In this document: positions 8,924 to 48,245 of the stretch, in pieces | Position numbering within the stretch: the stretch's first letter is position 1 | How the letters are laid out: every line of letters starts with the position of its first letter | Assembly: GCA_046329555.1 (NCBI GenBank) | Contig: JAXLUK010000002.1 | Span: forward strand, 128,983 to 192,982 | DNA length: 64,000 nt | DNA from: Chitinophagales bacterium | Lineage (GTDB): Bacteria; Bacteroidota; Bacteroidia; Chitinophagales; LD1 | Reading direction: 5' to 3' | Notes under the pieces: generated by a model | The model's database searches: none | Told to the model about the DNA's origin: nothing | What the model saw: the letters and a program-made list of their open reading frames with translations, nothing else | Position numbers and translations under genes: made by a program

Positions 8924-11900
8924 TTACTTTTTGTTATTGAGCAGGTTAATAGCGCCTTTATAAATCCGGGAATCACCCTTATTTTTCACCGCATAGTAGT
9001 AAGTGCCATCTGGTAGCATATTGCCGTTGTTCTTAAAGGTGCCGTTCCAGTCGTTTACATAAGCGCCACTTTCAAATACTACTTCGCCCCAGCGATTGAA
9101 AATGATCACTTGCGCGGATGGGAACTGGTTCAGATCAATGATCCACACATCGTTCTTGCCGTCGCCATTCGGCGTCATCACATCAGGGAACAACAGATTG
9201 GTATTCGGTGTTACCACTACTTTCACCGAATCGGTAGCCGTACAACCATACATATCCATTACGGTCAGATAATATTGCGCATCTACGCTTGGCGTTGCAA
9301 GTGGGTTCGCCACAATGGCATAATTCAAAGTAGAATCCGGATACCACAGATACGCGAATGGCGGACTACCAGACGCTGATCCTTCCAATTGCGTCCAGCT
9401 GCCACGGGCAACGGTGGTATCTGCACCTGCATCCACAGTTGGCGAAGCATGACCCAGAACTTGCAATGACGCAGAATCAGAAGTGCAGGCATTTGTTGTA
9501 ATGGCTAAGATATTATATACCGAATCTGCAGTTGCGGTTAACACGTGTGGATTATCAGCCACGGCCATGCCGTTTATATAAATTACCGTGTTACCGGCAC
9601 CGGCAGCTGTAAGTGTTACTGACTCTCCTGCGCAAATCACATTGTCGGCATCACTACTGGTTAATGTCGTTCCCGGTTTACCGGCTACAGTGACATTTAT
9701 AAATGCAGATTTCGAACCACAACCATTCAAACTATTTGCTGAAACGCTGATGGTACCGTTGCTGGCCGTATTGCCTAAATCTAGCACAGCAACATTGCCA
9801 CTTTGAACTAAACTGGCATCACTACCTTGGTAAGTCCATGAATAGCTAACACCAGGATCGTTTTGCACAGCAAAGACATGAGCCAGCGTGCCGGCACAGA
9901 ACGCACTATCAGCCTGAACAAATACCGGAGCCGCGGCAACTGCCTTTCCTACAATAGTAACCATGGCCGTATCACGGCAAGTATTGGCATCTATATAAAC
10001 CGCCATGTATGTGCCTGGCGGAACTGCACCTGGATTTGGCGTATTGAAGTTGATCGGCGTGAATCCTCCGAAATTAATACTGTTCAGATTAAACGTATTG
10101 TTTACACAAACAGAATCGATTACATCATTACCCAGATTTGGATTGTTATTCACTACCAGATTCAACGTAATCACGCTATCACAATTTGCGGCATTCGGCA
10201 ATGTGTCGCGATAGGTTCCGGCATTGCTAAGTAGCTGCCCGTTAAATACATAAGTACTACCTAAACAAATAGCCGCATTGACCGTAGTTGCTGAAGGCGA
10301 ACCAACCGTAAGATTCAGCACCACAACGCTATCACAACCACCTACGGCAGCACCCAGTATGGTATCGCGGTAAACACCAGCCGCGGAAAGATTCATTCCG
10401 TTGAACGGATATACACCGCCATTGCAGATACTACCGGAAATTGTAGATGTAATAATTGGCGAAACAGTCAAATTTGTAATTACTACACTATCACATCCGC
10501 TGACAGCCAACAGGGTGTCGCGATAGGTACCGGATGTGGTATAGATATGTTGCCCTACTACCACAGAAGCACCGGTACAAATAGTAGGTGACTGTGTAGT
10601 ACTGATTGCAGGAAGGATGGTGAGATCAGAAACAATGATACTATCACAGGTATTGACAGCTGCAAACGTATCGCTGTACCAACCGCTTGCATAGTAAACA
10701 TGAGTTCCGACCACCAATGAATCATTGGCGCAAAGCACCACATGCTGCGTATCGCGCTGAGAAGGCGTTACGAGTAATTCAGTACTCACTATACTGTCGC
10801 ATAGCGCTGCATTCACTAAAGTATCGGTGTACGTTCCGGCAAGGGTATAAGTATGTGTTCCGATAGTATAAGACCTTCCTTCACAAATGAATATCGACTG
10901 TCCGTAGAAGCTGCTATTCTTAATCTGTAACGTAGTTGTGATAATACTATCACATCCAAAACTATTGGGCAGCGTATCGGTATAAACACCCGCGCTGCTA
11001 TAGGTATGGATACCCACGGTTACTGATTGTCCGTTACAAACCGACAAGCTTTGTGCAAACGAACTGGCTGGATTTACGGTGAGGTTCGTTGTAACGATAC
11101 TATCACATAATACGCCGGCCAGCGTATCTGTATAGGTACCTGTGGCGCCGTAAGTATGCACACCTACTGAAACTGTTTGACCCTGACAAAGCACTAAGGT
11201 TTGATTACCTGTTGCGTACGGACGAACATTTACAGTTGTTACCAGAATACTATCACAGCCGGTTGATGCGGCCAGTGTATCCGTGTAAACACCAGCGGCA
11301 GTATAAACATGCGCGCCCACGGCTACTGATTGACCCGGACAAATATCTACGCTCTGACTAAAATTCACAGGAATTATGGTGACAGTAGTAGTGATAATAC
11401 TATCACACCCAGATACGGCTGCTAATGTATCGGTAAAGACCCCGGCGGCATTATACAGATGTACGCCCACAGAAACACTTTGACCCGGACACAGATTAAA
11501 CGACTGGGCACTCAGTACCGGATTAATAACCGACAAATCTGTAGTAATGATACTATCGCATCCATTTACGCCAGTCAGCGTATCAGCGTATATTCCCGCT
11601 GCATAATAAACCGAATTGCCTACTACAAAACTATCTCCGCTACAAATACTTTGATTTAATGAAGTAGTACTCACGGTAAGTACCGTAAGGTGGGTCACCA
11701 CAATGCTATCGCAGCCTCCTGCTGTAACCAACGTATCATAGTAATCACCAGCGGTAGTATAGGTATTGCCACCCACTACCACTTGTGCGCCCTGACAAAT
11801 TACCGGTGACTGTACTACTGAATCTGCCGGCGTCACCGTGAGATGGTAAACAACTATACTATCGCATCCAACAGATGCGGTAAGTGTATCCTGATAATCG

Positions 11901-14900
11901 CCCGATGCGGTATAGCTGGCAGCACCCACAGCAAAGGATGTACCCTGGCAGATGACCGGATACAAATCCGTTGTAATCTGAGGAAGTATAGTTACATCGA
12001 GATCTATCACGCTGTCGCATGCCAGCATGTTCGTTAATACTACCTGATACAATCCGGTGGCGCTGTAAAATTGACCATTGTACGCAACGCTATCGCCGAA
12101 GCAGGCGCTCAGCGATAATGATGAACCGCCTGGAATCACATATAGGTTTGTTGTCTGGAAACTATCACATCCCGTAACACTGGTTAATGTGTCGTAATAA
12201 GTTCCGGTAAATGAGTAGTAATTCGAACCAACCTGGATATAATCATCTTCGCAAATCACAACATCCTTAACCACAGTATTCTTCGGACGAATATCCAATT
12301 CCGTACTCACAATACTATCGCAGCCGAAGCTGTTAGGAATAGTATCCAAATAAACGCCTGGTACCATATGCACATTAGCTCCGATAAACAACGTGTCGCC
12401 GAAGCAAAGTGTTACGCTCTGACCAAATGAAGTTTGAGGAAGAATAGTAATTGTTGTCGTAATCACGCTATCACAACTGAAGGCATTCGCAATGGTATCT
12501 GTATAGGTACCGGCTGCCTTATAAACATGACCCGCTACAACAGCTGAATCTCCAAGACAAAACTGCAACCACTGCGCATAAGATGAAGTAGGATTAACCG
12601 TTAAATCAGTATATACGATACTGTCACACAGCAGCATATTCTTGAATGTATCAGCATACAACCCGGCAGTTGTATACGTATGCGTTCCTATTGAGAAACT
12701 CTGACCCTGACAAATGGCAACGCTTTGAGAGGTGCTCGCCGGAATGACATACAACGCAGTTGTAACTACGCTGTCGCAGCTATATTGATTAGTTAGAACA
12801 TCGGTAAAAGTTCCTGAGGTAGTATAGGTACTGCCTCCTACCTGAACAGATTGTCCAGCGCATATCATCAAAGACTGAGTGACACTATCAATCGGATTGA
12901 TAAGAATGGAAGTCGTTAAAACACTATCGCAGCCAGTCACCGAAGTGAGCGTATCGGTATAAGTTCCGGTAGTGTTATAAGTGTGGCTTCCTATGGTTAC
13001 ACTTCCTGAACCGCAGAAGGTTAAAGACTGGCTACCTGTAATCAGATTGCGGACGGTAAGATCCGTAGTCACCACACTATCGCAACCTAAACTATTCAGA
13101 AATGTATCTGTATAAACACCAGATGCATTGTAAGTATGGGTGCCTATCGAGTAGCTGGCACCAAAACAAATAGTTACATTTTGAGAAGAAGCAGTATTCG
13201 GATTTACAGTTAAGTCGGTAAATACAATGCTATCACATAACAACGCATTTTGCAGCGTATCGGTATAAGAGCCGGCAACAGTGTATGTATTACTACCAAT
13301 TGAATAACTCTGACCCTGACAAATTGTTACGTTCTGTGAAGTGCTTTGCGGAATTACATAAACATCAGTTATTACAATACTATCACAACCAAACTGATTA
13401 CCTAAGGTATCTATATAACTTCCGGTCAGGCTATAGCTATTGCTGCCCACTTGCACTGTTTGTCCGAAACAAATGGTGAACGACTGACTGATGTGATCAA
13501 TCGGATTGATTGTTAAGTTAGTTGTCAGAATACTATCGCAACCAGTAACGGAAGTTAAGGTGTCAGTATAGGTGCCTGTAGCTGTATATGTATGGCTTCC
13601 CACATTAACACTTCCAGATCCGCAGAAGGTTAAAGACTGGCTACCTGAAATCAGATTGCGGACGGTAAGATTAGTAGTCACCACACTATCGCAACCTAAA
13701 CTATTCAGAAATGTATCTGTATAAACACCAGATGCATTGTAAGTATTGGCGCCTATCGAGTAGCTGGCACCAAAGCAAATGGTTACATTTTGAGAAGAAG
13801 CAGTATTCGGATTAACCGTTAAGTCGGTAAATACAATGCTATCACATAACAACGCATTTTGTAGCGTATCGGTATAAGAGCCGGCAACAGTGTATGTATT
13901 ACTGCCAATTGAATAACTCTGACCCTGACAAATTGTGATATTCTGCGAAGTACTTTGCGGAATTACATTAACTAAGGTAGTCACGATGCTGTCACAACCA
14001 TATTGATTACCCATGGTATCTACATAAGTACCAGTGGTGCTATATATATTGCTTCCAACCTGAACGGTTTGCCCGAAGCAGATTGTAAATGACTGACTGA
14101 TATTATCAATCGGATTTATCGTCAAATCGGTTGTAACAATACTATCGCATCCTGTTACCGACGCTAACGTGTCTGTGTAACTTCCGGTGGTAGTGTAGGT
14201 ATGACTACCTACAACAACACTTCCAGTGCCGCAGAAGGTGAATGACTGATTGCTGGATATTGGATTTAATACGGTAAGATTAGTAGTCACCACGCTATCG
14301 CAACTCAAACTATTTAACAAAGTGTCGGAATACGTTCCTGACGCAGTATAGGTACTGCTGCCAATGCTATAACTTCCACCATAACAAATAGTCACATTTT
14401 GCGACGAACCTGCAGGAATAACATACAATGAAGTGTTCACTACGCTGTCGCAAACATATTGGTTAGCCAAAACATCAGTGTAGCTTCCGGTTGACGTATA
14501 AACGTTTGAACCTACCACAATACTATCGCCGCTGCAAATAGTAAAAGACTGATTGACTGTATCGGTAGGATTAATGACAAGGGTAGAAACCACAACACTA
14601 TCGCAACCGTTGGTAGCTACCAGGGTATCGGTGTAAGTACCTGCGGAAGTATATGTATGAACGCCAACACTTACACTACCACTTCCGCAGAACGTAATTG
14701 TTTGCGTATCCGTGATCAACGGCATTACGTTTAGATTGGTCGTAATAATACTGTCGCATCCGTATGAATTAGCAAAAGTATCCGCATAGAATCCGGTACT
14801 TGAATAGGTATGTGCTCCAATAGTATAAGATGCCCCAAAGCAAATAGCCACCGCCTGCGTATCGTTGGTGGAAGGATTTACTGTGAGATTGGTAGTTACA

Positions 14901-15871
14901 ATGCTGTCGCAGGTATTGGCACCAATCAAGGTATCAAGGTAGGTTCCAGCTACTGTATAAGAGTGGCTGCCAATGGTATAAGTTTGACCATTACAAATTA
15001 CTACATCCTGCGTATCGGCAGTTGGATACAGTAAATTCAATGGAATTTGTACCGAACTATAGCAACCTTTGAAGTAAGGTAATGATACGATAGCTGTGAA
15101 TGAATCATTGGCAATAGGAACCAATTTAGGTTGAACCACTAAGTTGCCGCGCGCAAATTTCACCACACCGCCGCCGGTTTCGCCACCCACAAAATCTCTT
15201 AAATCAACAGTATCTCCAAGACAACTATTGATAGTAGTAGCGGTAAGATCTGGTGATGGATGTACATTGAAGCTATCCAGATAATTATTGATGCAACCCG
15301 GATTTTGCGCATCAATACTATCACCGTCAAACAACACCTGTGTGTAATGCCAACCTAATGCTAACGTAGAGGGGTCGAAAATTCCAGATGGCAATCCATC
15401 TAAAAAGAAACTGCCTACTCCTGCACCAGTAATGGTTACCGTATCCTGTGCCGAATTCTGACAATAATCGCTATACAAACCATCAATGGTTGCCTGAGGA
15501 TAGTAACAAATGCCGTTGGCAGAGAGCGTATCGGTTCCGTTAGTAACAACTACTGAAAAATTCATGCCGTCGATATGACGGCCCGATAATTCATAAACAC
15601 CTGTACCCAAATCTGTGAGGGGCGTTCCCGGAAGAATTGCATCAGGGGCAACAGGAGGATTACCACTGGTAGTTTGATAGAAGCTATCGGCCGCAACCAC
15701 CACCCAGGCATCGCCTAAATTACCATTTACCTGAATAGTTGAATTGAACTGACCGGTACCATTGCCATTGGCGTTATTACTACAAGCACACGGGCTCACC
15801 GAAATAGTTTGCCCCGTGGCCCATCCGGCTATACAACATCCCACTAAAACTGCGTATAAACGTTTCATCAT
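8924..15871 (-). CDS. 2315-aa repetitive adhesin-like protein with T9SS type B (gliding motility-associated, CHU_C-type) C-terminal sorting domain
   Basis: It has a signal peptide followed by 32 tandem ~51-aa Cys-containing units. The C-terminus (FPDVMTPNGDGKNDVWII...FNRWGEVVF...WNG...LPDGTYYY) matches the type B CTD. It lies directly upstream of a PorP/SprF-family gene, the usual pairing for type B cargo. Confidence 0.85.
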   Translation of the reverse strand: MMKRLYAVLVGCCIAGWATGQTISVSPCACSNNANGNGTGQFNSTIQVNGNLGDAWVVVAADSFYQTTSGNPPVAPDAILPGTPLTDLGTGVYELSGRHIDGMNFSVVVTNGTDTLSANGICYYPQATIDGLYSDYCQNSAQDTVTITGAGVGSFFLDGLPSGIFDPSTLALGWHYTQVLFDGDSIDAQNPGCINNYLDSFNVHPSPDLTATTINSCLGDTVDLRDFVGGETGGGVVKFARGNLVVQPKLVPIANDSFTAIVSLPYFKGCYSSVQIPLNLLYPTADTQDVVICNGQTYTIGSHSYTVAGTYLDTLIGANTCDSIVTTNLTVNPSTNDTQAVAICFGASYTIGAHTYSSTGFYADTFANSYGCDSIITTNLNVMPLITDTQTITFCGSGSVSVGVHTYTSAGTYTDTLVATNGCDSVVVSTLVINPTDTVNQSFTICSGDSIVVGSNVYTSTGSYTDVLANQYVCDSVVNTSLYVIPAGSSQNVTICYGGSYSIGSSTYTASGTYSDTLLNSLSCDSVVTTNLTVLNPISSNQSFTFCGTGSVVVGSHTYTTTGSYTDTLASVTGCDSIVTTDLTINPIDNISQSFTICFGQTVQVGSNIYSTTGTYVDTMGNQYGCDSIVTTLVNVIPQSTSQNITICQGQSYSIGSNTYTVAGSYTDTLQNALLCDSIVFTDLTVNPNTASSQNVTICFGASYSIGANTYNASGVYTDTFLNSLGCDSVVTTNLTVRNLISGSQSLTFCGSGSVNVGSHTYTATGTYTDTLTSVTGCDSILTTNLTINPIDHISQSFTICFGQTVQVGSNSYSLTGSYIDTLGNQFGCDSIVITDVYVIPQSTSQNVTICQGQSYSIGSNTYTVAGSYTDTLQNALLCDSIVFTDLTVNPNTASSQNVTICFGASYSIGTHTYNASGVYTDTFLNSLGCDSVVTTDLTVRNLITGSQSLTFCGSGSVTIGSHTYNTTGTYTDTLTSVTGCDSVLTTSILINPIDSVTQSLMICAGQSVQVGGSTYTTSGTFTDVLTNQYSCDSVVTTALYVIPASTSQSVAICQGQSFSIGTHTYTTAGLYADTFKNMLLCDSIVYTDLTVNPTSSYAQWLQFCLGDSAVVAGHVYKAAGTYTDTIANAFSCDSVITTTITILPQTSFGQSVTLCFGDTLFIGANVHMVPGVYLDTIPNSFGCDSIVSTELDIRPKNTVVKDVVICEDDYIQVGSNYYSFTGTYYDTLTSVTGCDSFQTTNLYVIPGGSSLSLSACFGDSVAYNGQFYSATGLYQVVLTNMLACDSVIDLDVTILPQITTDLYPVICQGTSFAVGAASYTASGDYQDTLTASVGCDSIVVYHLTVTPADSVVQSPVICQGAQVVVGGNTYTTAGDYYDTLVTAGGCDSIVVTHLTVLTVSTTSLNQSICSGDSFVVGNSVYYAAGIYADTLTGVNGCDSIITTDLSVINPVLSAQSFNLCPGQSVSVGVHLYNAAGVFTDTLAAVSGCDSIITTTVTIIPVNFSQSVDICPGQSVAVGAHVYTAAGVYTDTLAASTGCDSILVTTVNVRPYATGNQTLVLCQGQTVSVGVHTYGATGTYTDTLAGVLCDSIVTTNLTVNPASSFAQSLSVCNGQSVTVGIHTYSSAGVYTDTLPNSFGCDSIITTTLQIKNSSFYGQSIFICEGRSYTIGTHTYTLAGTYTDTLVNAALCDSIVSTELLVTPSQRDTQHVVLCANDSLVVGTHVYYASGWYSDTFAAVNTCDSIIVSDLTILPAISTTQSPTICTGASVVVGQHIYTTSGTYRDTLLAVSGCDSVVITNLTVSPIITSTISGSICNGGVYPFNGMNLSAAGVYRDTILGAAVGGCDSVVVLNLTVGSPSATTVNAAICLGSTYVFNGQLLSNAGTYRDTLPNAANCDSVITLNLVVNNNPNLGNDVIDSVCVNNTFNLNSINFGGFTPINFNTPNPGAVPPGTYMAVYIDANTCRDTAMVTIVGKAVAAAPVFVQADSAFCAGTLAHVFAVQNDPGVSYSWTYQGSDASLVQSGNVAVLDLGNTASNGTISVSANSLNGCGSKSAFINVTVAGKPGTTLTSSDADNVICAGESVTLTAAGAGNTVIYINGMAVADNPHVLTATADSVYNILAITTNACTSDSASLQVLGHASPTVDAGADTTVARGSWTQLEGSASGSPPFAYLWYPDSTLNYAIVANPLATPSVDAQYYLTVMDMYGCTATDSVKVVVTPNTNLLFPDVMTPNGDGKNDVWIIDLNQFPSAQVIIFNRWGEVVFESGAYVNDWNGTFKNNGNMLPDGTYYYAVKNKGDSRIYKGAINLLNNKK
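10220..15025 (-). repeat. In-frame tandem repeat region: 32 units of ~153 bp (51 aa)
   Basis: The unit motif is C-x-G-x(5,6)-G-x2-Y-x3-G-x-Y-x-D-T-x(5,6)-C-D-S-[IV]-x3-[LV]. I counted 32 CDS[IV] motifs in the translation. The boundaries are approximate. Confidence 0.8.
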
Positions 15872-44446: not shown

Positions 44447-46024
44447 TTACTGAATAACTACTCTTCCAACATAGGTGTTGCCTGCCTGCCGCACCTCCAC
44501 CATATAAGTGCCTCTACTAATTTCACCCAAATGAATAGGGTTGACGGCTTGTTTAACTACGCGAACTACGGCTCCGCCTTCATCTACCAACTTAATAGAA
44601 GCTTCTTCTGAAATGGCATCCCCGTTGGGCAACTGTATGGTAAACGTACCATGGTTTGGACTGGCGAAAATACGCAATTCGCCTATGGTTTGCTTTGGCG
44701 TTTCACGAATGCCATTGACTTGAGCTAGTTTGGCGAGAAAAAAATCTGAACCTTGGTTTACATCAACATGCAGATTATATGAACCAAAATGGTTGTCACC
44801 CGGATTAAGGCTACCCGTAAAATATACGGCACCTTGTGCATCTACGGCAAAGTCCCGGTAATCAGCAAAAGGCAGTGCCACTAATCCCTTGCACACGCCA
44901 TTCGTATCAAACCGTGCCACGAAATGATCAACAGCGCCAGGTTTTGTTTGAGTAGATGTTATAGTAAATCCGTCAACTGTAAACTGTCCCAGAAAGGCTG
45001 CGTACATGAAAATTTCACCATTAGCGGCCATAACCATCGGACCTCCCGAAACAATGTTGGTTGAGCTTAAAATCCTACTCCAAGCCACATGACGATTTGA
45101 ATCCAATTTTACCAGATAAAAGTTGGTAGCTGTACCAGAAATATGTCGTAATGAGTCATCGCTGAAAGCAATGCTAGAATCAATATTCCCAGCGAAGTAC
45201 ATACTCGATTTTGAATCGATTAAAAAATTAATGTTGGCATCATTGATGGGCATCGACCATTTCAAGGAACCATTGCTTTGCAATGCGCAAAATATAGTTT
45301 GAACCGGAAATGCACTAGGTAAAAAAGGAACTAATTGAGACTGTAGGGTATCGAATGTAAATGCAGAGTCATTAGCCATGAAGCAATAGAGCGTGTTATT
45401 CGCATACTGCATGGCGCCATAAGCGTTATTTGCGCCATTGCTATTTTTCATCCACTTAACTTTACCATTTCCATTAACGTGCGCAATAACATGCTCCGAC
45501 CAATTAAACCCGGGCCGTCTAACACAAAAAGTGTCTATACACGGTCCGTCATAATTCGCACCTCCATATACGTAAACCCCATTGGAGTCGTCAGGAAAGA
45601 CCTTCGTTGCGTAAATGAAGTTTTTGAATTTTTTTGTGACATGTAATGCTGTATCGTACGTCGATAAAAACAAAGAAGTGTCATCGGATCCCGTGAAATA
45701 GATATTGCCTTTTTGCATCTCCATGGAAATGGCGTAGGTAGAACTACCGAAAAATGGAAAGTTGAATGGCGATCCTCCAATCAGTTGGCCGGTATTCGTA
45801 AATTTTGCTAACAGTAATCCCTTTTTGACATAACTATTATTCCATAGATGTAATGAATCGTTGTAGGAAATAGTAGCATAAATATTACCCACGCTGTCAA
45901 CACTCACTGACTTACCTTTTCCATCACCGGACTTTCCTTGAATAGCCCATTGCCATTGCCCAAGTGCAGCAGCGTGAATAAACAGAAAGAAAACAATCTG
46001 TATTGCCAAAAACCTGTTTCTCAT
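44447..46024 (-). CDS. Secreted beta-propeller-like protein with T9SS type A C-terminal domain
   Basis: It has a signal peptide and repeated blade-like segments (GNIY.T, VY.TG). The C-terminus (RIFASPNHGTFTIQLP...GTYMVEVRQ...GRVVIQ) is CTD-like. Confidence 0.7.
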   Translation of the reverse strand: MRNRFLAIQIVFFLFIHAAALGQWQWAIQGKSGDGKGKSVSVDSVGNIYATISYNDSLHLWNNSYVKKGLLLAKFTNTGQLIGGSPFNFPFFGSSTYAISMEMQKGNIYFTGSDDTSLFLSTYDTALHVTKKFKNFIYATKVFPDDSNGVYVYGGANYDGPCIDTFCVRRPGFNWSEHVIAHVNGNGKVKWMKNSNGANNAYGAMQYANNTLYCFMANDSAFTFDTLQSQLVPFLPSAFPVQTIFCALQSNGSLKWSMPINDANINFLIDSKSSMYFAGNIDSSIAFSDDSLRHISGTATNFYLVKLDSNRHVAWSRILSSTNIVSGGPMVMAANGEIFMYAAFLGQFTVDGFTITSTQTKPGAVDHFVARFDTNGVCKGLVALPFADYRDFAVDAQGAVYFTGSLNPGDNHFGSYNLHVDVNQGSDFFLAKLAQVNGIRETPKQTIGELRIFASPNHGTFTIQLPNGDAISEEASIKLVDEGGAVVRVVKQAVNPIHLGEISRGTYMVEVRQAGNTYVGRVVIQ

Positions 46025-46228
46025 AAACTTTCCTTAACTAATTTAAAAAAGTATTGATTGTTCGTGGTTTTACAACTAACCTGATAAACACCTGATGCTC
46101 ATTTTCTACATTAATATTTCCCCCTGATCAATTAATCGCCAGAATGCCGCCATCCCCATCACATCGGTAACAGCAACAGTGATATTTGAATTTAGAACAG
46201 CGGAACCATCAAGCGCAAACATGGCCCA

Positions 46229-47505
46229 CCACACGCAGTGGCACCTAAAATGCGCGAGGTGGCGAAGGCTTCCTATTACCAATCCCGTAGGGATCGCATC
46301 GCTGCATCGCAATGACTGATGCGATTAATTTAATCGTTATGCATAACGCGGAAAATTATTCCATAGGCGGCACAATTTCGTTTTATGCGACCCCTACGGG
46401 GTCAGGTTATATTTCCGCTTAATGTTACCGATCCCGTGGGTATCGCATCGCTGCATCTCAATGATTGATGCGATTAATTTAATCGTTATGCATAACGCGG
46501 AAAATTATTACATAGGCGGCGCAATTTCGTTTTATGCGACCCCTACGGGTCGTAAAACAAACGCTTCCGGGGGAGCTACAGATATATGACCCCTACGGGG
46601 TCAGGTTAGATTCCCGTTTCGTGTTTCCAATCCCGTAGGGATCGCATCTCGGTAACCCGACAGATATATGACCCCTACGGGGTCAGGTTATATTTCCGCT
46701 TAATGTTACCGATCCCGGAGGGATCGCAACGCTGCATCGCAATGATTGATGCGATTAATTTAATCGTTATGCATAACGCGGAAAATTATTCCATAGGCGG
46801 CGCAATTTCGTTTTATGCGACCCCTACGGGGTCGTAATACAAAACGCTTCCGGGGGAGCTACAGATATATGACCCCTACGGGGTCAGGTTATGTTTCCGC
46901 TTAATATTACCAATCTCGTGGGTATCGCATCTCGTTAACCCGACAGATATATGACCCCTACGGGGTCAGGTTAGATTCCCGTTTCGTGTTACCGATCCCG
47001 TGGGTATCGCATCGCCGTAGCCTACGTGAACGATCATTCGAAATTCGGATTCGATGTCCGATGGTTCGATATTCGATGTTGGAAAAATATGAATCACAGA
47101 TTTTAAAATTGGCGTTAACGATGACTTCCCTTAACGAGTGATGCTTAAAAGAATGCCGCTCATCAGGCTTCTTGTTACCGATCCCGGAGGGATCGCATCG
47201 CTGTAGCCTACGTGAACGATCATTCGAAATTCGGATTCGATGTTCGATGGTTCGATATTGGATGTTGGGAAAATATGAATCACAGATTTTAAAATTGGCG
47301 TTTACGATGATTTCCCTTAACGAGTGATGCTTAAAAGAATGCAGCTCATCAGGCTTCTTGTTACCGATCCCGGAGGGATCGCATGGCTGTAGCCCGATGA
47401 TGCGCCAGCCAACGACCCCGTAGGGGTCGCATGTTTGGGAATGTTCCATTTTGCTGTCAATGGCAGCCACACGCAGTGGCGCCTAAAATGCGCGAGGTGG
47501 CGAAG
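46229..47505. repeat. Non-coding mosaic array of palindromic hairpin repeats (REP/BIME-like), bounded by 39-bp direct repeats
   Basis: There are eight copies of TTACC-GATCCC-NNN-GGGATC-GCATC and eight of GACCCC-TAC-GGGGTC, joined by reused linkers. The nested units run 46276-46424 (149 bp), 46425-46705 (281), 46706-46988 (283), 46989-47174 (186) and 47175-47360 (186). Direct repeats CCACACGCAGTGGC[A/G]CCTAAAATGCGCGAGGTGGCGAAG sit at 46229-46267 and 47467-47505. Confidence 0.85.
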
Positions 47506-47678
47506 TGGAAAGCCCACAGCGCACGAGGTACGAGTGCGCGAGGACTTGCAACGAAGCAACCGACCCCGAAGGCAGCGAAGTCTCTTGTTGCTTCAGCGCC
47601 ATGATGCGCTGCCGAAGGGGGCGCGCCCAAATAACGAGCCCCTAACACCTTGTCAACTTTTTCCCCATCTTTCACGCC

Positions 47679-48245
47679 GTGAAACGTCTGGCCATTTTTG
47701 CATCGGGCGGCGGCAGTAATGCCCGGGCCTTATTCGAATATTTTAAAGACGACAACCGCATCCAATTGCCCCTGGTGATTGCCAACAAAGAAGGTGCAGG
47801 CGTTTTTGGCGTGGCGGCTTCATTCGGCGCTACCGCTGTTTGGGTTAAAAAATCGCAACTGAACAACCCTGATTTCTTATTGCCATTGTTGCAACAACAT
47901 CGCATAGACGGCATTTTACTGGCGGGATTTTTGTTGTTGATTCCTCCGTACCTGGTGGCGGCATATCCCCAGGCGATATTGAACATCCATCCCGCCTTGC
48001 TGCCCAAATTCGGCGGCGCCGGCATGCACGGGCATCATGTACACGAGGCCGTTTTAGCCGCGGGCGAAACCGTGAGCGGTCCGACGGTTCATTTGGTGAA
48101 TGAACAATACGACGAGGGCCGCATTCTTGCCCAACAAACGGTGCCTGTGCTGCCCGACGATACGGCTGAAACACTGGCCCGACGCGTGCTGGAAGCCGAG
48201 CACCAACTGTATCCCAAAACCGTTGCTGCGTATTTTATTCGATAA
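47679..48245 (+). CDS. purN: Phosphoribosylglycinamide formyltransferase
   Basis: It shows the LAIFASGGGSN, LAGFL.L.P and NIHPALLPKFGG.GMHG..VH PurN motifs. It uses a GTG start. Confidence 0.88.
   Translation: MKRLAIFASGGGSNARALFEYFKDDNRIQLPLVIANKEGAGVFGVAASFGATAVWVKKSQLNNPDFLLPLLQQHRIDGILLAGFLLLIPPYLVAAYPQAILNIHPALLPKFGGAGMHGHHVHEAVLAAGETVSGPTVHLVNEQYDEGRILAQQTVPVLPDDTAETLARRVLEAEHQLYPKTVAAYFIR

What the first reader, a model, noticed from the sequence alone, without database searches (positions are those of the whole stretch)
46281..47428. The two hairpin families are reverse complements of each other with a compensatory stem substitution
P1 with its flank reads GATCCC-GTA-GGGATC-GCA. The reverse complement of P2 with its flank (TGC-GACCCC-TAC-GGGGTC) reads GACCCC-GTA-GGGGTC-GCA. 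P2 is therefore an inverted P1 in which the third stem pair has changed from T:A to C:G on both arms, preserving pairing. The copy at 47414-47431 (GACCCCGTAGGGGTCGCA) carries the P2 stem in the P1 orientation, which links the two families. Other copies change only loop bases (GTA, GTG, GGA) or weaken one pair (GGGTATC, AATCTC). Paired changes of this kind are expected if the hairpin, as DNA cruciform or RNA stem, is under selection rather than being a passive duplicate.
Basis: seen in the sequence. Interest (0 to 1): 0.6.

Follow-up and report, generated by a model that had tools for sequence, protein, structure and literature searches.

The report
REP-like hairpin array tied to IS200-like transposase
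The two "hairpin families" are two stem versions of one ~35-40-base repeated DNA element, stacked 16 times in one gap between genes. In other bacteria the same element brackets a small single-strand-DNA transposase gene, a link the reference survey of these enzymes did not report.

Summary
Sixteen copies of a 6-bp-stem, 3-nt-loop hairpin lie at 46276-47442 and nowhere else in the 64 kb. P2 is an inverted P1 with T:A changed to C:G at one stem pair.

They are one element: a short head, the hairpin, and a 3' tail (R)CATRTTTRTAG. Copies abut in alternating orientation, like a BIME, and were multiplied by tandem duplications with periods of 82, 149, 186 and 283 nt.

The same element forms arrays in six phyla. 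In 7 of 118 hairpin-selected genome loci, and in 47 of 79 protein-selected metagenome loci, inverted copies bracket a ~150-aa HUH Y1 transposase of "subclass 1.2". Quentin et al. 2018 list that subclass as having no associated structures.

Stem pairing is maintained through abundant double-sided changes. Left and right copies at the gene often differ by a compensatory pair, once exactly as P1 and P2 do. G·T pairs are almost absent, which points to DNA-level pairing.

Locally the evidence is weak. There is one compensatory difference, inherited by duplication and older than this array, and 5 of 8 P1 copies carry uncompensated stem defects. No Y1 gene lies in the window.

Verdict: a REP/BIME-like cluster, most likely the substrate of a subclass-1.2 Y1 transposase. 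It is a new variant of a known kind.

The parts
46276..47442 (.). Whole array: 16 copies of a ~34-40-nt hairpin-plus-tail element in alternating orientation. It lies in the 1.65-kb gap between two divergent genes.
   Evidence: model R1: 16 hits at E<=0.019, none elsewhere. (independent model R2: 10 hits at E<0.01).
46276..46309 (+). Element 1, P1 stem: ttacc AATCCC gta GGGATC gcatcgctgcatcg. A·C mismatch at the outer pair.
   Evidence: 28.1 bits.
46375..46408 (-). Element 2, P2 stem. Read on its own strand: aacct GACCCC gta GGGGTC gcataaaacg.
   Evidence: 26.9 bits.
46425..46458 (+). Element 3, decayed P1: GATCCC gtg GGTATC, with a C·T mismatch.
   Evidence: predicted hairpin energy 0 kcal/mol.
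46524..46556 (-). Element 4, P2 stem with a 1-nt deletion (GACCCCTACGGG-TC).
   Evidence: 17.3 bits.
46574..46607 (-). Element 5, P2 stem with the canonical tail. Own strand: GACCCC gta GGGGTC atatatcTGTAGc.
   Evidence: 35.8 bits; 31.5 bits, E=6.6e-7.
46624..46657 (+). Element 6, P1 stem: AATCCC gta GGGATC gcatctcggtaacc.
46656..46689 (-). Element 7, P2 stem. Its tail overlaps the tail of element 6, forming a tail-to-tail doublet of hairpins 46629-46684.
46706..46739 (+). Element 8, P1 stem: GATCCC gga GGGATC.
46805..46838 (-). Element 9, P2 stem with the TGC flank.
46857..46890 (-). Element 10, P2 stem with tail ATATATCTGTAGC.
46907..46940 (+). Element 11, the most decayed P1: AATCTC gtg GGTATC, with three stem defects.
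   Evidence: (17.4 bits).
46939..46972 (-). Element 12, P2 stem.
46989..47022 (+). Element 13, decayed P1: GATCCC gtg GGTATC gcatcgcCGTAGcc.
47175..47208 (+). Element 14, intact P1: GATCCC gga GGGATC gcatcgcTGTAGcc.
47361..47394 (+). Element 15, intact P1: GATCCC gga GGGATC gcatggcTGTAGcc.
47409..47442 (+). Element 16, P2 stem in the + orientation: ccaac GACCCC gta GGGGTC gcatgtttggg. Bases 47408-47437 are 100% identical to two loci of a Bacteroidales MAG.
   Evidence: 30.6 bits.
46281..46403 (+). 123-nt tail-to-tail doublet: P1, an 85-nt spacer, then inverted P2. It recurs at 46430-46552 and 46711-46833. As a single strand it folds into one long hairpin with a T·G and an A·C mismatch at the P1/P2 difference.
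   Evidence: period 149. (z = -3.25 as DNA, -4.42 as RNA).
46389..47015 (+). Higher-order tandem duplication: period 283 nt, 2.2 copies, 91% matches. It contains two 82-nt sub-arrays.
46983..47394 (+). 186-nt tandem repeat, 2.2 copies, 94% matches. Each unit is P1 plus a 168-nt spacer that contains TTCGATG heptamer runs.
46229..46267 (+). Left copy of a 39-nt direct repeat that brackets the array.
47467..47505 (+). Right copy of the 39-nt direct repeat (97% identical).
44447..46024 (-). Left flanking gene: 525-aa secreted protein with a weak match to the T9SS C-terminal sorting domain. It is transcribed away from the array.
   Evidence: E=3.4e-5; 24.5 bits, below the curated cut-off of 27.
47679..48245 (+). 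Right flanking gene: formyltransferase of the purN type. It is transcribed away from the array.
   Evidence: Formyl_trans_N, E=2.5e-41.

Best explanation
The stretch is a BIME-like cluster of a REP-like DNA element. Each element has three parts: a short head (AATGTTACC-like), a 6-bp GC-rich stem with an R-T-A triloop, and a 3' tail (R)CATRTTTRTAG. P1 and P2 are two stem alleles of this one element, T:A and C:G at the fourth pair from the loop. They are placed in opposite orientations, so elements abut head-to-head and tail-to-tail about every 41 nt, or enclose an 85-nt spacer.

Shown:
- The element family is the one whose inverted copies bracket a ~150-aa HUH Y1 transposase of subclass 1.2 in other genomes.
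- The tails of those bracketing copies point inward toward the gene.
- Stem pairing in the family is maintained by compensatory changes.
- The left and right copies at a Y1 gene are often different stem alleles.

Inferred mechanism:
- The Y1 dimer recognises the hairpin in single-stranded DNA, as IS608 and ISDra2 TnpA and E. coli TnpA-REP do.
- It cuts and rejoins near the conserved tail and moves single elements or tail-to-tail doublets in trans, often next to existing copies.
- Only copies with an intact stem are propagated. That would explain covariation without any benefit to the host.
- Keeping the two partners of a doublet as different stem alleles leaves each local hairpin perfect while putting a T·G and an A·C mismatch into the long inter-element hairpin. 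This should favour the local hairpins and avoid a long perfect palindrome.
- This particular array was then enlarged by ordinary tandem duplication, and its P1 copies are now decaying.
For: Anatomy:
- 16 copies in alternating orientation with head, stem, loop and tail in register.
- Tandem periods of 82, 149, 186 and 283 nt.

Same element elsewhere:
- A genome scan with GAYCCCGTAGGGRTCRYA returned arrays in Bacteroidota, Ignavibacteria, Planctomycetota, Verrucomicrobiota, Acidobacteriota and a cyanobacterium.

Association with the Y1 gene:
- 7 of the 118 hairpin-selected loci carry a Y1 gene directly bracketed by the hairpins.
- It is the most recurrent ORF family in the non-coding loci.
- It matches Pfam Y1_Tnp at 3.5e-28 and NCBIfam transpos_IS200 at 76.9 bits, above the cut-off of 55.
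- Its invariant motifs are DHxH, WQ and YIxxQxxHH.

Reciprocal test, on 80 metagenome loci chosen by protein only:
- 47 of 79 usable loci have an upstream/downstream inverted repeat, against 9 of 79 in a mismatched-locus control. That repeat is the stem, RTA loop, stem and CATGTTTATAG tail.
- Perfect GC hairpins occur at 1.65 per kb within 200 nt of the gene, against 0.12 per kb more than 600 nt away.

The window copies belong to that family:
- Model R2, built only from those Y1-flanking elements, finds 10 window copies at E<0.01 on the correct strand and nothing outside the array.

Covariation:
-.
- G·T pairs fill only 5 of 784 cells.
- Uncompensated intermediates fold at -2.0 kcal/mol, against -3.7 for P1 and -4.7 for P2.
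- L140 shows AATCCC/GGGATG upstream and AACCCC/GGGGTG downstream of one gene, which is the P1/P2 difference.

Closest solved proteins:
- ISDra2 and IS608 TnpA, both hairpin-binding single-strand-DNA transposases.
Against: - No Y1 gene or remnant lies in the 64-kb window, and the rest of this genome is unavailable. The link to a Y1 enzyme in this organism is therefore by family membership only.
- All copies sit in one intergenic region. Dispersal and high copy number, which are hallmarks of REPs, are unshown for this genome.
- About 40% of the Y1 loci (32 of 79) showed no clear inverted repeat within 200 nt.
- Binding, cleavage and mobility are untested.
- The canonical 5' GT[AG]G foot of REPs is absent.
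- The hairpin positions used for searches were anchored on the best palindrome, and alignment A3 is fitted to the model. Both choices lean towards pairing.
- Covariation of a palindrome is equally expected for a dimeric double-strand-DNA binding site.
- The array lies between divergent gene starts, which is not the usual 3' location of REPs.
Confidence: 0.75

Rival explanations
1. The element is the end of an ordinary IS200-type insertion sequence, and the array consists of its miniature non-autonomous derivatives (PATE or MITE-like). On this view it is selfish and mobile as a unit, not a REP system served by a domesticated, single-copy enzyme.
For: - The Y1 protein passes the NCBIfam IS200 model and fails the RAYT model.
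- Its nearest solved structures are IS608 and ISDra2 TnpA.
- The hairpin-to-hairpin unit around the gene is about 600-700 bp, the size of IS200.
- Its patchy distribution across phyla, and a 30-nt identity between this window and a Bacteroidales MAG, suggest horizontal movement.
- The 123-nt doublet has the same ends as the gene-bearing unit.
Against: - IS200/IS605 ends are not inverted repeats; their two hairpins are read on the same strand (established knowledge of IS608). Here the flanks are true inverted repeats, asymmetric tail included, as in REPtrons.
- Quentin et al. 2018 (PMC6006769) report low gene copy number for subclass 1.2 and low identity between its copies, and conclude it 'does not share IS properties'.
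- Solo elements and arrays greatly outnumber genes in the fetched loci.
Confidence: 0.13
2. The palindrome is a double-stranded binding site for a dimeric protein, such as a regulator of the divergent promoters or a nucleoid or restriction-type protein. The mirrored changes would then reflect two-fold symmetry of the site, not hairpin formation.
For: - Symmetric half-site changes would give the same counts.
- The near-absence of G·T pairs fits any DNA-level constraint.
- The array lies between two divergent gene starts.
Against: - The centre and the 3' tail are asymmetric and oriented: A at the third loop position in 82-88% of copies, and a conserved CATRTTTRTAG on one side only.
- The model discriminates strands by about 20 bits.
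- The only specifically associated gene is a single-strand-DNA hairpin enzyme.
- 16 copies in 1.2 kb, several of them broken, is not how operators look.
- C-RNA-G triloops are known to be unusually stable DNA mini-hairpins (own knowledge).
Confidence: 0.05
3. The hairpins act as RNA: transcribed stem-loops that terminate, stabilise or process the neighbouring mRNAs, or form a small RNA precursor.
For: - As RNA, the 146-nt segment 46270-46415 that contains the 123-nt doublet folds well (-48 kcal/mol, z = -4.42).
- Three inverted copies are followed by a T-rich run and were flagged as terminator-like: 7 sites found against 2.6 expected.
- REPs in E. coli are known to affect mRNA stability (abstract of PMC3479197).
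Against: - No Rfam family matches. The best hits are miRNA-precursor noise at E>=0.2.
- G·U pairs, which are tolerated in RNA, are almost absent (5 of 784 cells; 0 T-G among 68 non-coding matches).
- Copies lie in both orientations within one array, so any transcript would carry half of them as the complement with a different loop and tail.
- The array is upstream of both neighbouring genes, not at their 3' ends.
Confidence: 0.04
4. The array has no function or selection at all. A chance palindrome was amplified by local slippage or unequal recombination, and the P1/P2 difference is an accident.
For: - Most local copies are products of tandem duplication.
- 5 of 8 P1 copies have uncompensated defects.
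- Only one compensatory difference exists locally.
- There are no copies elsewhere in the 64 kb.
Against: - The same ~34-nt element, tail included, recurs in arrays in six phyla and at Y1 genes.
- 67 of 68 non-coding matches are Watson-Crick at the disputed pair.
- The window shares a 30-nt identity with a Bacteroidales MAG.
Confidence: 0.03

Closest known systems
REP elements, BIME clusters and REPINs with their RAYT / TnpA-REP Y1 transposases (E. coli, Pseudomonas, Stenotrophomonas; Nunvar 2010 PMC2817692; Di Nocera 2013 PMC3733652; Quentin 2018 PMC6006769)
   Same: - Short GC-rich extragenic palindromes.
- Clusters with regularly alternating orientation.
- Inverted doublets that can fold into one long hairpin.
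- Doublets made of partners with different stems: Di Nocera reports heterodimers whose elements differ in stem sequence, and writes complementary nucleotide changes within REP families using degenerate (IUB) codes. From my own knowledge, the Y and Z REPs of E. coli BIMEs are a further example.
- A Y1 HUH gene bracketed by inverted copies, as in a REPtron.
   Different: - There is no GT[AG]G tetranucleotide at the 5' foot of the hairpin. GTA sits in the loop, and a conserved TRTAG lies 9-12 nt 3' of the stem.
- The stem is only 5-7 bp, below the 7-bp minimum used by the published REP detector.
- The associated enzyme is not class 2 (Y---NP motif). It is IS200-like subclass 1.2 (Y---Q--HH) and scores 35 bits against a cut-off of 80 on the RAYT model.
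- High genomic copy number is not shown for this genome.
TnpA-Y1 subclass 1.2 (Quentin et al. 2018, PMC6006769)
   Same: The associated proteins show DH[IV]H, WQ and YIxNQKEHH, are 142-160 aa long, and have a conserved C-terminal extension. They occur in Bacteroidetes and Cyanobacteria.
   Different: [quoted passage not shown]
- Its supplement lists no such hairpins.
- Here the genes are bracketed by inverted hairpin-plus-tail elements in 47 of 79 loci.
- They are also found in Ignavibacteria, Planctomycetota and Acidobacteriota.
IS200/IS605 family insertion sequences (IS200, IS608, ISDra2) and their miniature derivatives (PATEs)
   Same: - The Y1 HUH transposase fold and motifs; nearest PDB entries are 2xm3 and 2a6m.
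- Recognition of short hairpins near the element ends.
- A unit of about 0.6-0.7 kb.
   Different: - The ends here are inverted repeats of each other, whereas IS608-type left and right hairpins lie on one strand.
- Solo elements form BIME-like arrays.
- The literature reports low gene copy number for this subclass.
Class 3 and subclass 2.6 Y1 genes with 'atypical secondary structures' (Quentin et al. 2018)
   Same: They are Y1 genes in Bacteroidetes, Planctomycetes and Acidobacteria flanked by non-canonical hairpins, and copies of those hairpins occur elsewhere in the genome.
   Different: - The protein motifs differ: NH[LIV]H with YIH[QN]NP for subclass 2.6, and NHVH with YV..EQ for class 3.
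- Class 3 hairpins have a CnGA foot.
- None of these genes was found next to the hairpins in the fetched loci.

Membership tests
REP / BIME elements (RAYT-associated) | Short (20-40 nt) GC-rich palindrome located outside genes | tested here: met
   A 15-nt hairpin within a ~34-nt conserved element. The array lies in a 1.65-kb intergenic gap, and the only long ORF across it (170 aa) has no Pfam match.
REP / BIME elements (RAYT-associated) | Conserved GT[AG]G tetranucleotide 0-2 nt 5' of the hairpin foot | tested here: not met
   The 5' flank is TTACC or AACCT. GTA occupies the loop: 24 of 58 Y1-flanking copies read GTA, and 45 of 58 fit R-N-A. A conserved TRTAG lies 9-12 nt 3' of the stem.
REP / BIME elements (RAYT-associated) | Clusters with regularly spaced copies in alternating orientation (BIME) | tested here: met
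   Orientation alternates with 41-nt spacing across hairpin starts 46588, 46629, 46670 and 46711, and again across 46871, 46912, 46953 and 46994.
REP / BIME elements (RAYT-associated) | High copy number dispersed around the genome | not testable with these tools
   Only 64 kb of this genome is available, and all 16 copies are at one locus.
REP / BIME elements (RAYT-associated) | Cognate Y1 gene of the TnpA-REP / RAYT class (Y---NP motif; NCBIfam REP_Tyr_transpos) | tested here: not met
   The associated Y1 scores 35.2 bits against a cut-off of 80 on REP_Tyr_transpos. Its motif is YIxNQxxHH.
REP / BIME elements (RAYT-associated) | Y1 gene bracketed by inverted copies of the element (REPtron) | tested here: met
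   Met in related loci: 47 of 79 protein-selected loci against 9 of 79 in the control, and 7 hairpin-selected loci. Not observable in the window, which holds no Y1 gene.
TnpA-Y1 subclass 1.2 (the associated protein, in related loci) | DH[IV]H, WQ and Y---Q--HH motifs, about 148 aa, with a conserved C-terminal extension | tested here: met
   Invariant D54, H55, H57, W95, Q96, Y115, I116, Q119, H122 and H123; lengths 142-160 aa.
IS200/IS605 insertion sequences | Y1 HUH transposase (Pfam Y1_Tnp; NCBIfam transpos_IS200) | tested here: met
   Y1_Tnp at E=3.5e-28; transpos_IS200 at 76.9 bits, above the cut-off of 55. This applies to the gene in related loci, not to the window.
IS200/IS605 insertion sequences | Left and right subterminal hairpins on the same strand, with ends that are not inverted repeats | tested here: not met
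   The upstream and downstream copies are reverse complements of each other, including the asymmetric tail.
IS200/IS605 insertion sequences | Several near-identical full-length copies per genome | not testable with these tools
   No complete genome could be read. Quentin 2018 reports low copy number for the subclass and low identity between its copies.
MITE with terminal inverted repeats (DDE-transposase type) | Target-site duplication flanking the unit | tested here: not met
   The flanks of the 123-nt doublet read TTACC on the left and AGGTT on the right. They extend the inverted repeat and are not direct duplicates (read directly).
CRISPR array | Same-orientation repeats separated by unique spacers, with cas genes nearby | tested here: not met
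   The repeats lie in both orientations and the spacers are themselves repeated. The only CRISPR-related Rfam hit has E=5.6.
Intrinsic terminators | GC stem followed directly by a T-run, at 3' ends of genes | tested here: inconclusive
   Seven terminator-like sites were found against 2.6 expected, three of them P2 copies followed by AGGTTATATT. However, the array is upstream of both neighbouring genes, and most copies lack a T-run.

The most novel reading that the evidence does not exclude
The hairpin-plus-tail element and the subclass-1.2 Y1 transposase together form a previously unrecognised REP/RAYT-type partnership that spans several phyla. It would have arisen from the IS200-like branch independently of the canonical class-2 RAYTs. 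Its recognition layout is different: a 5-7-bp stem, an R-T-A triloop and a 3' CATRTTTRTAG tail in place of a 5' GTAG foot. Its doublets systematically pair two stem alleles that differ by compensatory substitutions.
Probability: 0.45. Interest if true: 0.7.

Novelty: new variant of a known kind. Interest (0 to 1): 0.6.

Why it matters
REP elements and their domesticated transposases are a model for how selfish DNA and host genomes settle into long-term coexistence. So far, firm element-enzyme pairs are known mainly for class-2 RAYTs in Proteobacteria.

This finding would matter in four ways:
- It would give subclass 1.2, an orphan Y1 group described as having neither IS nor REP properties, a concrete DNA partner in Bacteroidota, Ignavibacteria, Planctomycetota, Acidobacteriota, Verrucomicrobiota and cyanobacteria.
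- It would supply a testable substrate for biochemistry: hairpin, loop and tail.
- It would show that published REP detectors, which require a 5' GTAG and a stem of at least 7 bp, miss a whole family.
- It would provide a natural set of compensatory stem variants with which to ask why doublet partners are kept different.

For annotation, it explains why short-read assemblies break at this locus. The only other contig found for this organism ends inside the array.

Tried and rejected
- Rfam, at gathering thresholds over the whole window and at E<=10 over 45900-47800: only miRNA-precursor and CRISPR-repeat noise.
- Y1 gene or remnant in the window, by phmmer and by an 81-sequence HMM against all six-frame pieces: best E=1.1, so nothing.
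- Identifying the organism or finding more of its genome: the exact-protein look-up gave only a 2.2-kb Logan contig (SRR26348422) that ends in the array. BLAST of the window against all fetched loci found nothing from the same organism.
- Exact-sequence searches of the paper library for the hairpins: no relevant paper.
- Searches for later work on subclass 1.2: none beyond Quentin 2018.
- First attempt to find the exact GAYCCC...GGGRTC hairpin at protein-selected Y1 genes: only 11 of 80 loci. This looked like a failure until a sequence-agnostic inverted-repeat search showed that the stems differ by lineage.
- Raw pair-3 table: it looked poor, with 30 T-G. Those 30 proved to be conserved coding sequences in Burkholderiales, Planctomycetota and other high-GC genomes, and were separated out.
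- Viral origin: chance-level hairpin hits and no close Y1 in IMG/VR.
- The GC-rich stretch 47445-47680 as a structured leader of purN: z = -0.76, not supported.
- CRISPR, DDE-type MITE and terminator readings: rejected in the membership tests.
Full report
**1. The observation**

The intergenic region 46025-47678 lies between a gene on the - strand for a secreted protein (44447-46024; weak match to the T9SS C-terminal sorting domain, below Pfam's cut-off) and a purN-type formyltransferase gene on the + strand (47679-48245). It contains 16 copies of a hairpin with a 6-bp stem and a 3-nt loop.

- Eight copies on the + strand have the stem GATCCC/GGGATC (P1).
- Seven copies on the - strand, and one on the + strand at 47414, have GACCCC/GGGGTC (P2).
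- The degenerate pattern gives 14 matches against 0.23 expected.
- A covariance model run without filters finds the 16 copies and nothing else in the 64 kb.

- The TGC flank is present in only 3 of the 7 inverted copies.
- The variant GGTATC breaks a C:G pair, and the predicted hairpin is lost.
- One copy has a 1-nt deletion.
- Three P1 copies have an A·C mismatch at the outer pair.

**2. P1 and P2 are one element, and the array is a mosaic built by duplication**

When all copies are read in their own orientation they align beyond the hairpin.
- The head is TTACC in P1 and AACCT in P2.
- The tail is GCATCGCTGTAGCC in P1 and ATATATCTGTAGCT in P2.

Elements abut head-to-head with a 26-nt junction and tail-to-tail with a 23-nt junction in which the tails overlap. 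This gives a 41-nt period with alternating orientation. In three places they instead enclose an 85-nt spacer, forming a 123-nt doublet, or a 168-nt spacer.

Tandem Repeats Finder shows higher-order duplications with periods of 149, 283, 82 and 186 nt at 87-94% identity. The 16 copies are therefore a handful of lineages multiplied by segmental duplication.

As a single strand, the segment holding the 123-nt doublet (46270-46415, 146 nt) folds into one long hairpin (z = -3.25 as DNA, -4.42 as RNA). In that fold the P1/P2 difference appears as an interruption of the stem. By base identity the opposed bases there are T·G and A·C.

**3. Local evidence for selection is weak**

Within the window there is one compensatory difference, P1 against P2, inherited by all copies.
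- Among the eight P1 copies there are seven uncompensated stem substitutions (A1 three times, T12 three times, T5 once).
- Five of the eight P1 copies are imperfect, and three are predicted not to fold.
- The eight P2 copies are intact apart from one deletion.

**4. The same element is widespread**

I scanned one genome per species with GAYCCCGTAGGGRTCRYA. This pattern allows all four Y×R combinations at the disputed pair.

Many loci are arrays of the same hairpin, with GACCCC and GATCCC stems, loops GTA, GAA, GGA, GCA and AGA, and an RCAT tail. Spacing is often about 50 nt. They occur in Bacteroidota, Ignavibacteria, Planctomycetota, Verrucomicrobiota, Acidobacteriota and a cyanobacterium. 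Window bases 47408-47437 are identical to two loci of a Bacteroidales MAG.

Splitting the matches by context gives:

| Context | C-G | T-A | C-A | T-G |
|---|---|---|---|---|
| Non-coding | 56 | 11 | 1 | 0 |
| Inside long ORFs | 11 | 21 | 0 | 30 |

The ORF matches are conserved genes of Burkholderiales, Planctomycetota and other high-GC genomes. Outside genes, the pair is Watson-Crick in 67 of 68 cases, in either version.

**5. The associated gene**

Seven of the 118 loci carry a 142-160-aa ORF directly bracketed by the hairpins. It is the most recurrent ORF family among the non-coding loci.
- It matches Pfam Y1_Tnp at E=3.5e-28.
- It passes NCBIfam transpos_IS200 (76.9 bits, cut-off 55) and fails REP_Tyr_transpos (35 bits, cut-off 80).
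- Its invariant residues give DHxH, WQ and YIxxQxxHH. These are the motifs of "subclass 1.2" in Quentin et al. 2018 (PMC6006769).
- The nearest solved structures are ISDra2 and IS608 TnpA.

In gene orientation, a forward copy (stem, GTA, stem, CACAT...) lies 15-100 nt upstream of the start. An inverted copy lies 13-70 nt past the stop, so the tails point inward.

**6. Reciprocal test**

I fetched 80 metagenome loci by protein similarity alone. I then looked for the best ungapped match between the 200 nt upstream of the gene and the reverse complement of the 200 nt downstream. This makes no assumption about hairpins.
- A score of 12 or more was reached in 47 of 79 usable loci, against 9 of 79 when upstream and downstream came from different loci.
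- The repeat is almost always a stem of 5-7 bp, an R-T-A or GTTA loop, the complementary stem, and the tail (R)CATGTTTATAG or ACTGTTTGTAG.
- Perfect GC-rich tri- or tetraloop hairpins occur at 1.65 per kb within 200 nt of the gene and at 0.12 per kb beyond 600 nt.
- Stems differ by lineage: CGACCCC, TCGCTCC, AGCTCC, CGACTCC, GCACTCC, AATCCC, AAGCCCC, TTGCCGC, GCATTCC.

Model R2 was built only from these Y1-flanking elements, with no window or hairpin-selected sequences. It finds 10 of the window's copies at E<0.01 (best 6.6e-7) on the correct strand, and its 13 best hits in the window all lie in the array. The window elements therefore belong to this family.

**7. Covariation**

- On the ungapped alignment of 71 elements, 87% of cells pair against 69.5% after shuffling (0 of 500 shuffles reach this). 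There are 113 cells changed on both sides against 44.8 expected. The inner five pairs are essentially always paired; for example one pair reads AU 39, GC 29, UA 2, other 1, and another reads CG 56, UA 15, other 0.
- On 112 distinct elements from the genome loci, 98% of cells pair. The disputed pair reads CG 83, UA 28, AU 1 and none unpaired. Only 5 of 784 cells are G·U.
- Comparing the upstream with the downstream copy of the same gene, loci in clear register show 10 compensatory double changes in the inner five pairs and 1 uncompensated change. Loops differ in about half of the loci.
- L140 has AATCCC/GGGATG upstream and AACCCC/GGGGTG downstream, which is the window's P1/P2 difference. L160, L166, L171 and L174 show analogous swaps.

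Caveats:
- The hairpin register was set by the best palindrome, and alignment A3 is fitted to the model.
- The pair-3 table and the inverted-repeat test do not share that bias.
- Copies are related by descent, so the shuffle counts are not probabilities.

**8. Interpretation**

The stretch is a BIME-like cluster of a REP-like element whose family is the flanking and target DNA of subclass-1.2 Y1 transposases. The near-absence of G·T pairs, the oriented loop and tail, and an enzyme family known to bind single-strand-DNA hairpins together favour a DNA hairpin over an RNA stem or a duplex operator. Covariation alone cannot exclude a duplex operator.

The following points are inferred, not shown:
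- The enzyme acts in trans on single elements or tail-to-tail doublets.
- Only copies with intact stems propagate, which would yield compensatory patterns without host benefit.
- Pairing two stem alleles in a doublet keeps each local hairpin perfect while placing T·G and A·C mismatches in the long inter-element hairpin.

Growth of this array by tandem duplication is shown.

**9. Comparison with what is known**

Several features are established for REPs:
- Alternating-orientation clusters (abstract of PMC2817692, seen).
- Doublets of elements with different stems, and complementary stem changes within families (PMC3733652).
- Y1 genes bracketed by REP sequences, the REPtron structure (PMC6006769).

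What differs:
- There is no 5' GT[AG]G foot.
- The stem is very short.
- A 3' tail is conserved.
- The enzyme comes from the IS200-like branch.

Quentin et al. describe subclass 1.2 as lacking typical terminal structures. They list no REP for it in their main table or supplement. Their detector required GTAG or GTGG 5' of a stem of at least 7 bp, which would miss these elements. I found no later paper in the held library. Subscription literature was not searchable.

**10. Limits**

- No Y1 gene lies in the window, and the rest of the genome could not be retrieved.
- Copy number and dispersal in this organism are unknown.
- No inverted repeat was detected at 32 of the 79 Y1 loci.
- No biochemical test was possible.
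- The system is not viral: hairpin hits in IMG/VR are at chance level and no close Y1 was found there.

Noticed in passing
window 46229-46267 and 47467-47505: A 39-nt direct repeat (97% identical) brackets the whole array. It ends 8 nt before the first element and starts 24 nt after the last. It contains its own 5-bp hairpin GCCAC-ACGCA-GTGGC. Its origin is unknown: it could be a duplication made at insertion or a second repeat family.
   Followed up: partly
window 47445-47680: A GC-rich stretch (about 56% GC) upstream of purN holds several short GC hairpins and recurring GCGCGAGG and GCGAAG words. It has no Rfam match, and its RNA fold is no better than shuffles (z = -0.76).
   Followed up: partly
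window 47050-47080 and 47236-47266: Short TTCGATG heptamer runs (4.3 copies) lie inside each 168-nt spacer of the 186-nt tandem repeat.
   Followed up: no
window 47408-47437; L017:3819-3848; L099:7105-7134: A 30-nt exact identity (GCCAACGACCCCGTAGGGGTCGCATGTTTG) links the window's last element to two loci of Bacteroidales MAG STF2_19. This suggests a shared sub-family or horizontal spread.
   Followed up: partly
window 10100-15000: A long run of diverged repeats of about 150-153 nt (60-75% identical, spacing 150, 153 and 609 nt). It looks like a repetitive-domain coding region.
   Followed up: no
L001 (Logan contig SRR26348422_1410791): The only other assembly holding the neighbouring 525-aa protein is a 2.2-kb contig that ends at window position 46346, inside the first doublet. 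The array therefore appears to break short-read assembly.
   Followed up: partly
L094:3100-4500 (Porphyromonadaceae bacterium FC4): The Y1 gene here is surrounded by several different hairpin families besides GACCCC-NNN-GGGGTC. Examples are CCCCGAC-NNNN-GTCGGGG and GCACCCC-GCA-GGGGTGC, repeated on both sides in longer composite units.
   Followed up: partly
L078:2919-3300; L029:4638-4813; L021:43-302: In some genomes the elements form head-to-tail direct tandem arrays with a 47-51-nt period, not alternating ones. This hints that the full element is about 50 nt, or that insertion occurs at a fixed distance from an existing copy.
   Followed up: no
L104, L038, L032, L067, L069, L008, L088 (Planctomycetota, Verrucomicrobiota, Acidobacteriota): Copies in these phyla carry the same stems but have the tail GCAGC instead of CATRT. 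This is possibly a distinct sub-family with its own enzyme specificity.
   Followed up: no
L002, L016, L035, L039, L045 and others; L036, L061, L064, L080 and others: The 18-mer with an unpaired T-G at the disputed pair (GATCCCGTAGGGGTC) recurs inside two conserved protein-coding genes of Burkholderiales and of Planctomycetota, Acidobacteriota and Myxococcota. These are coding homology, unrelated to the repeat.
   Followed up: yes
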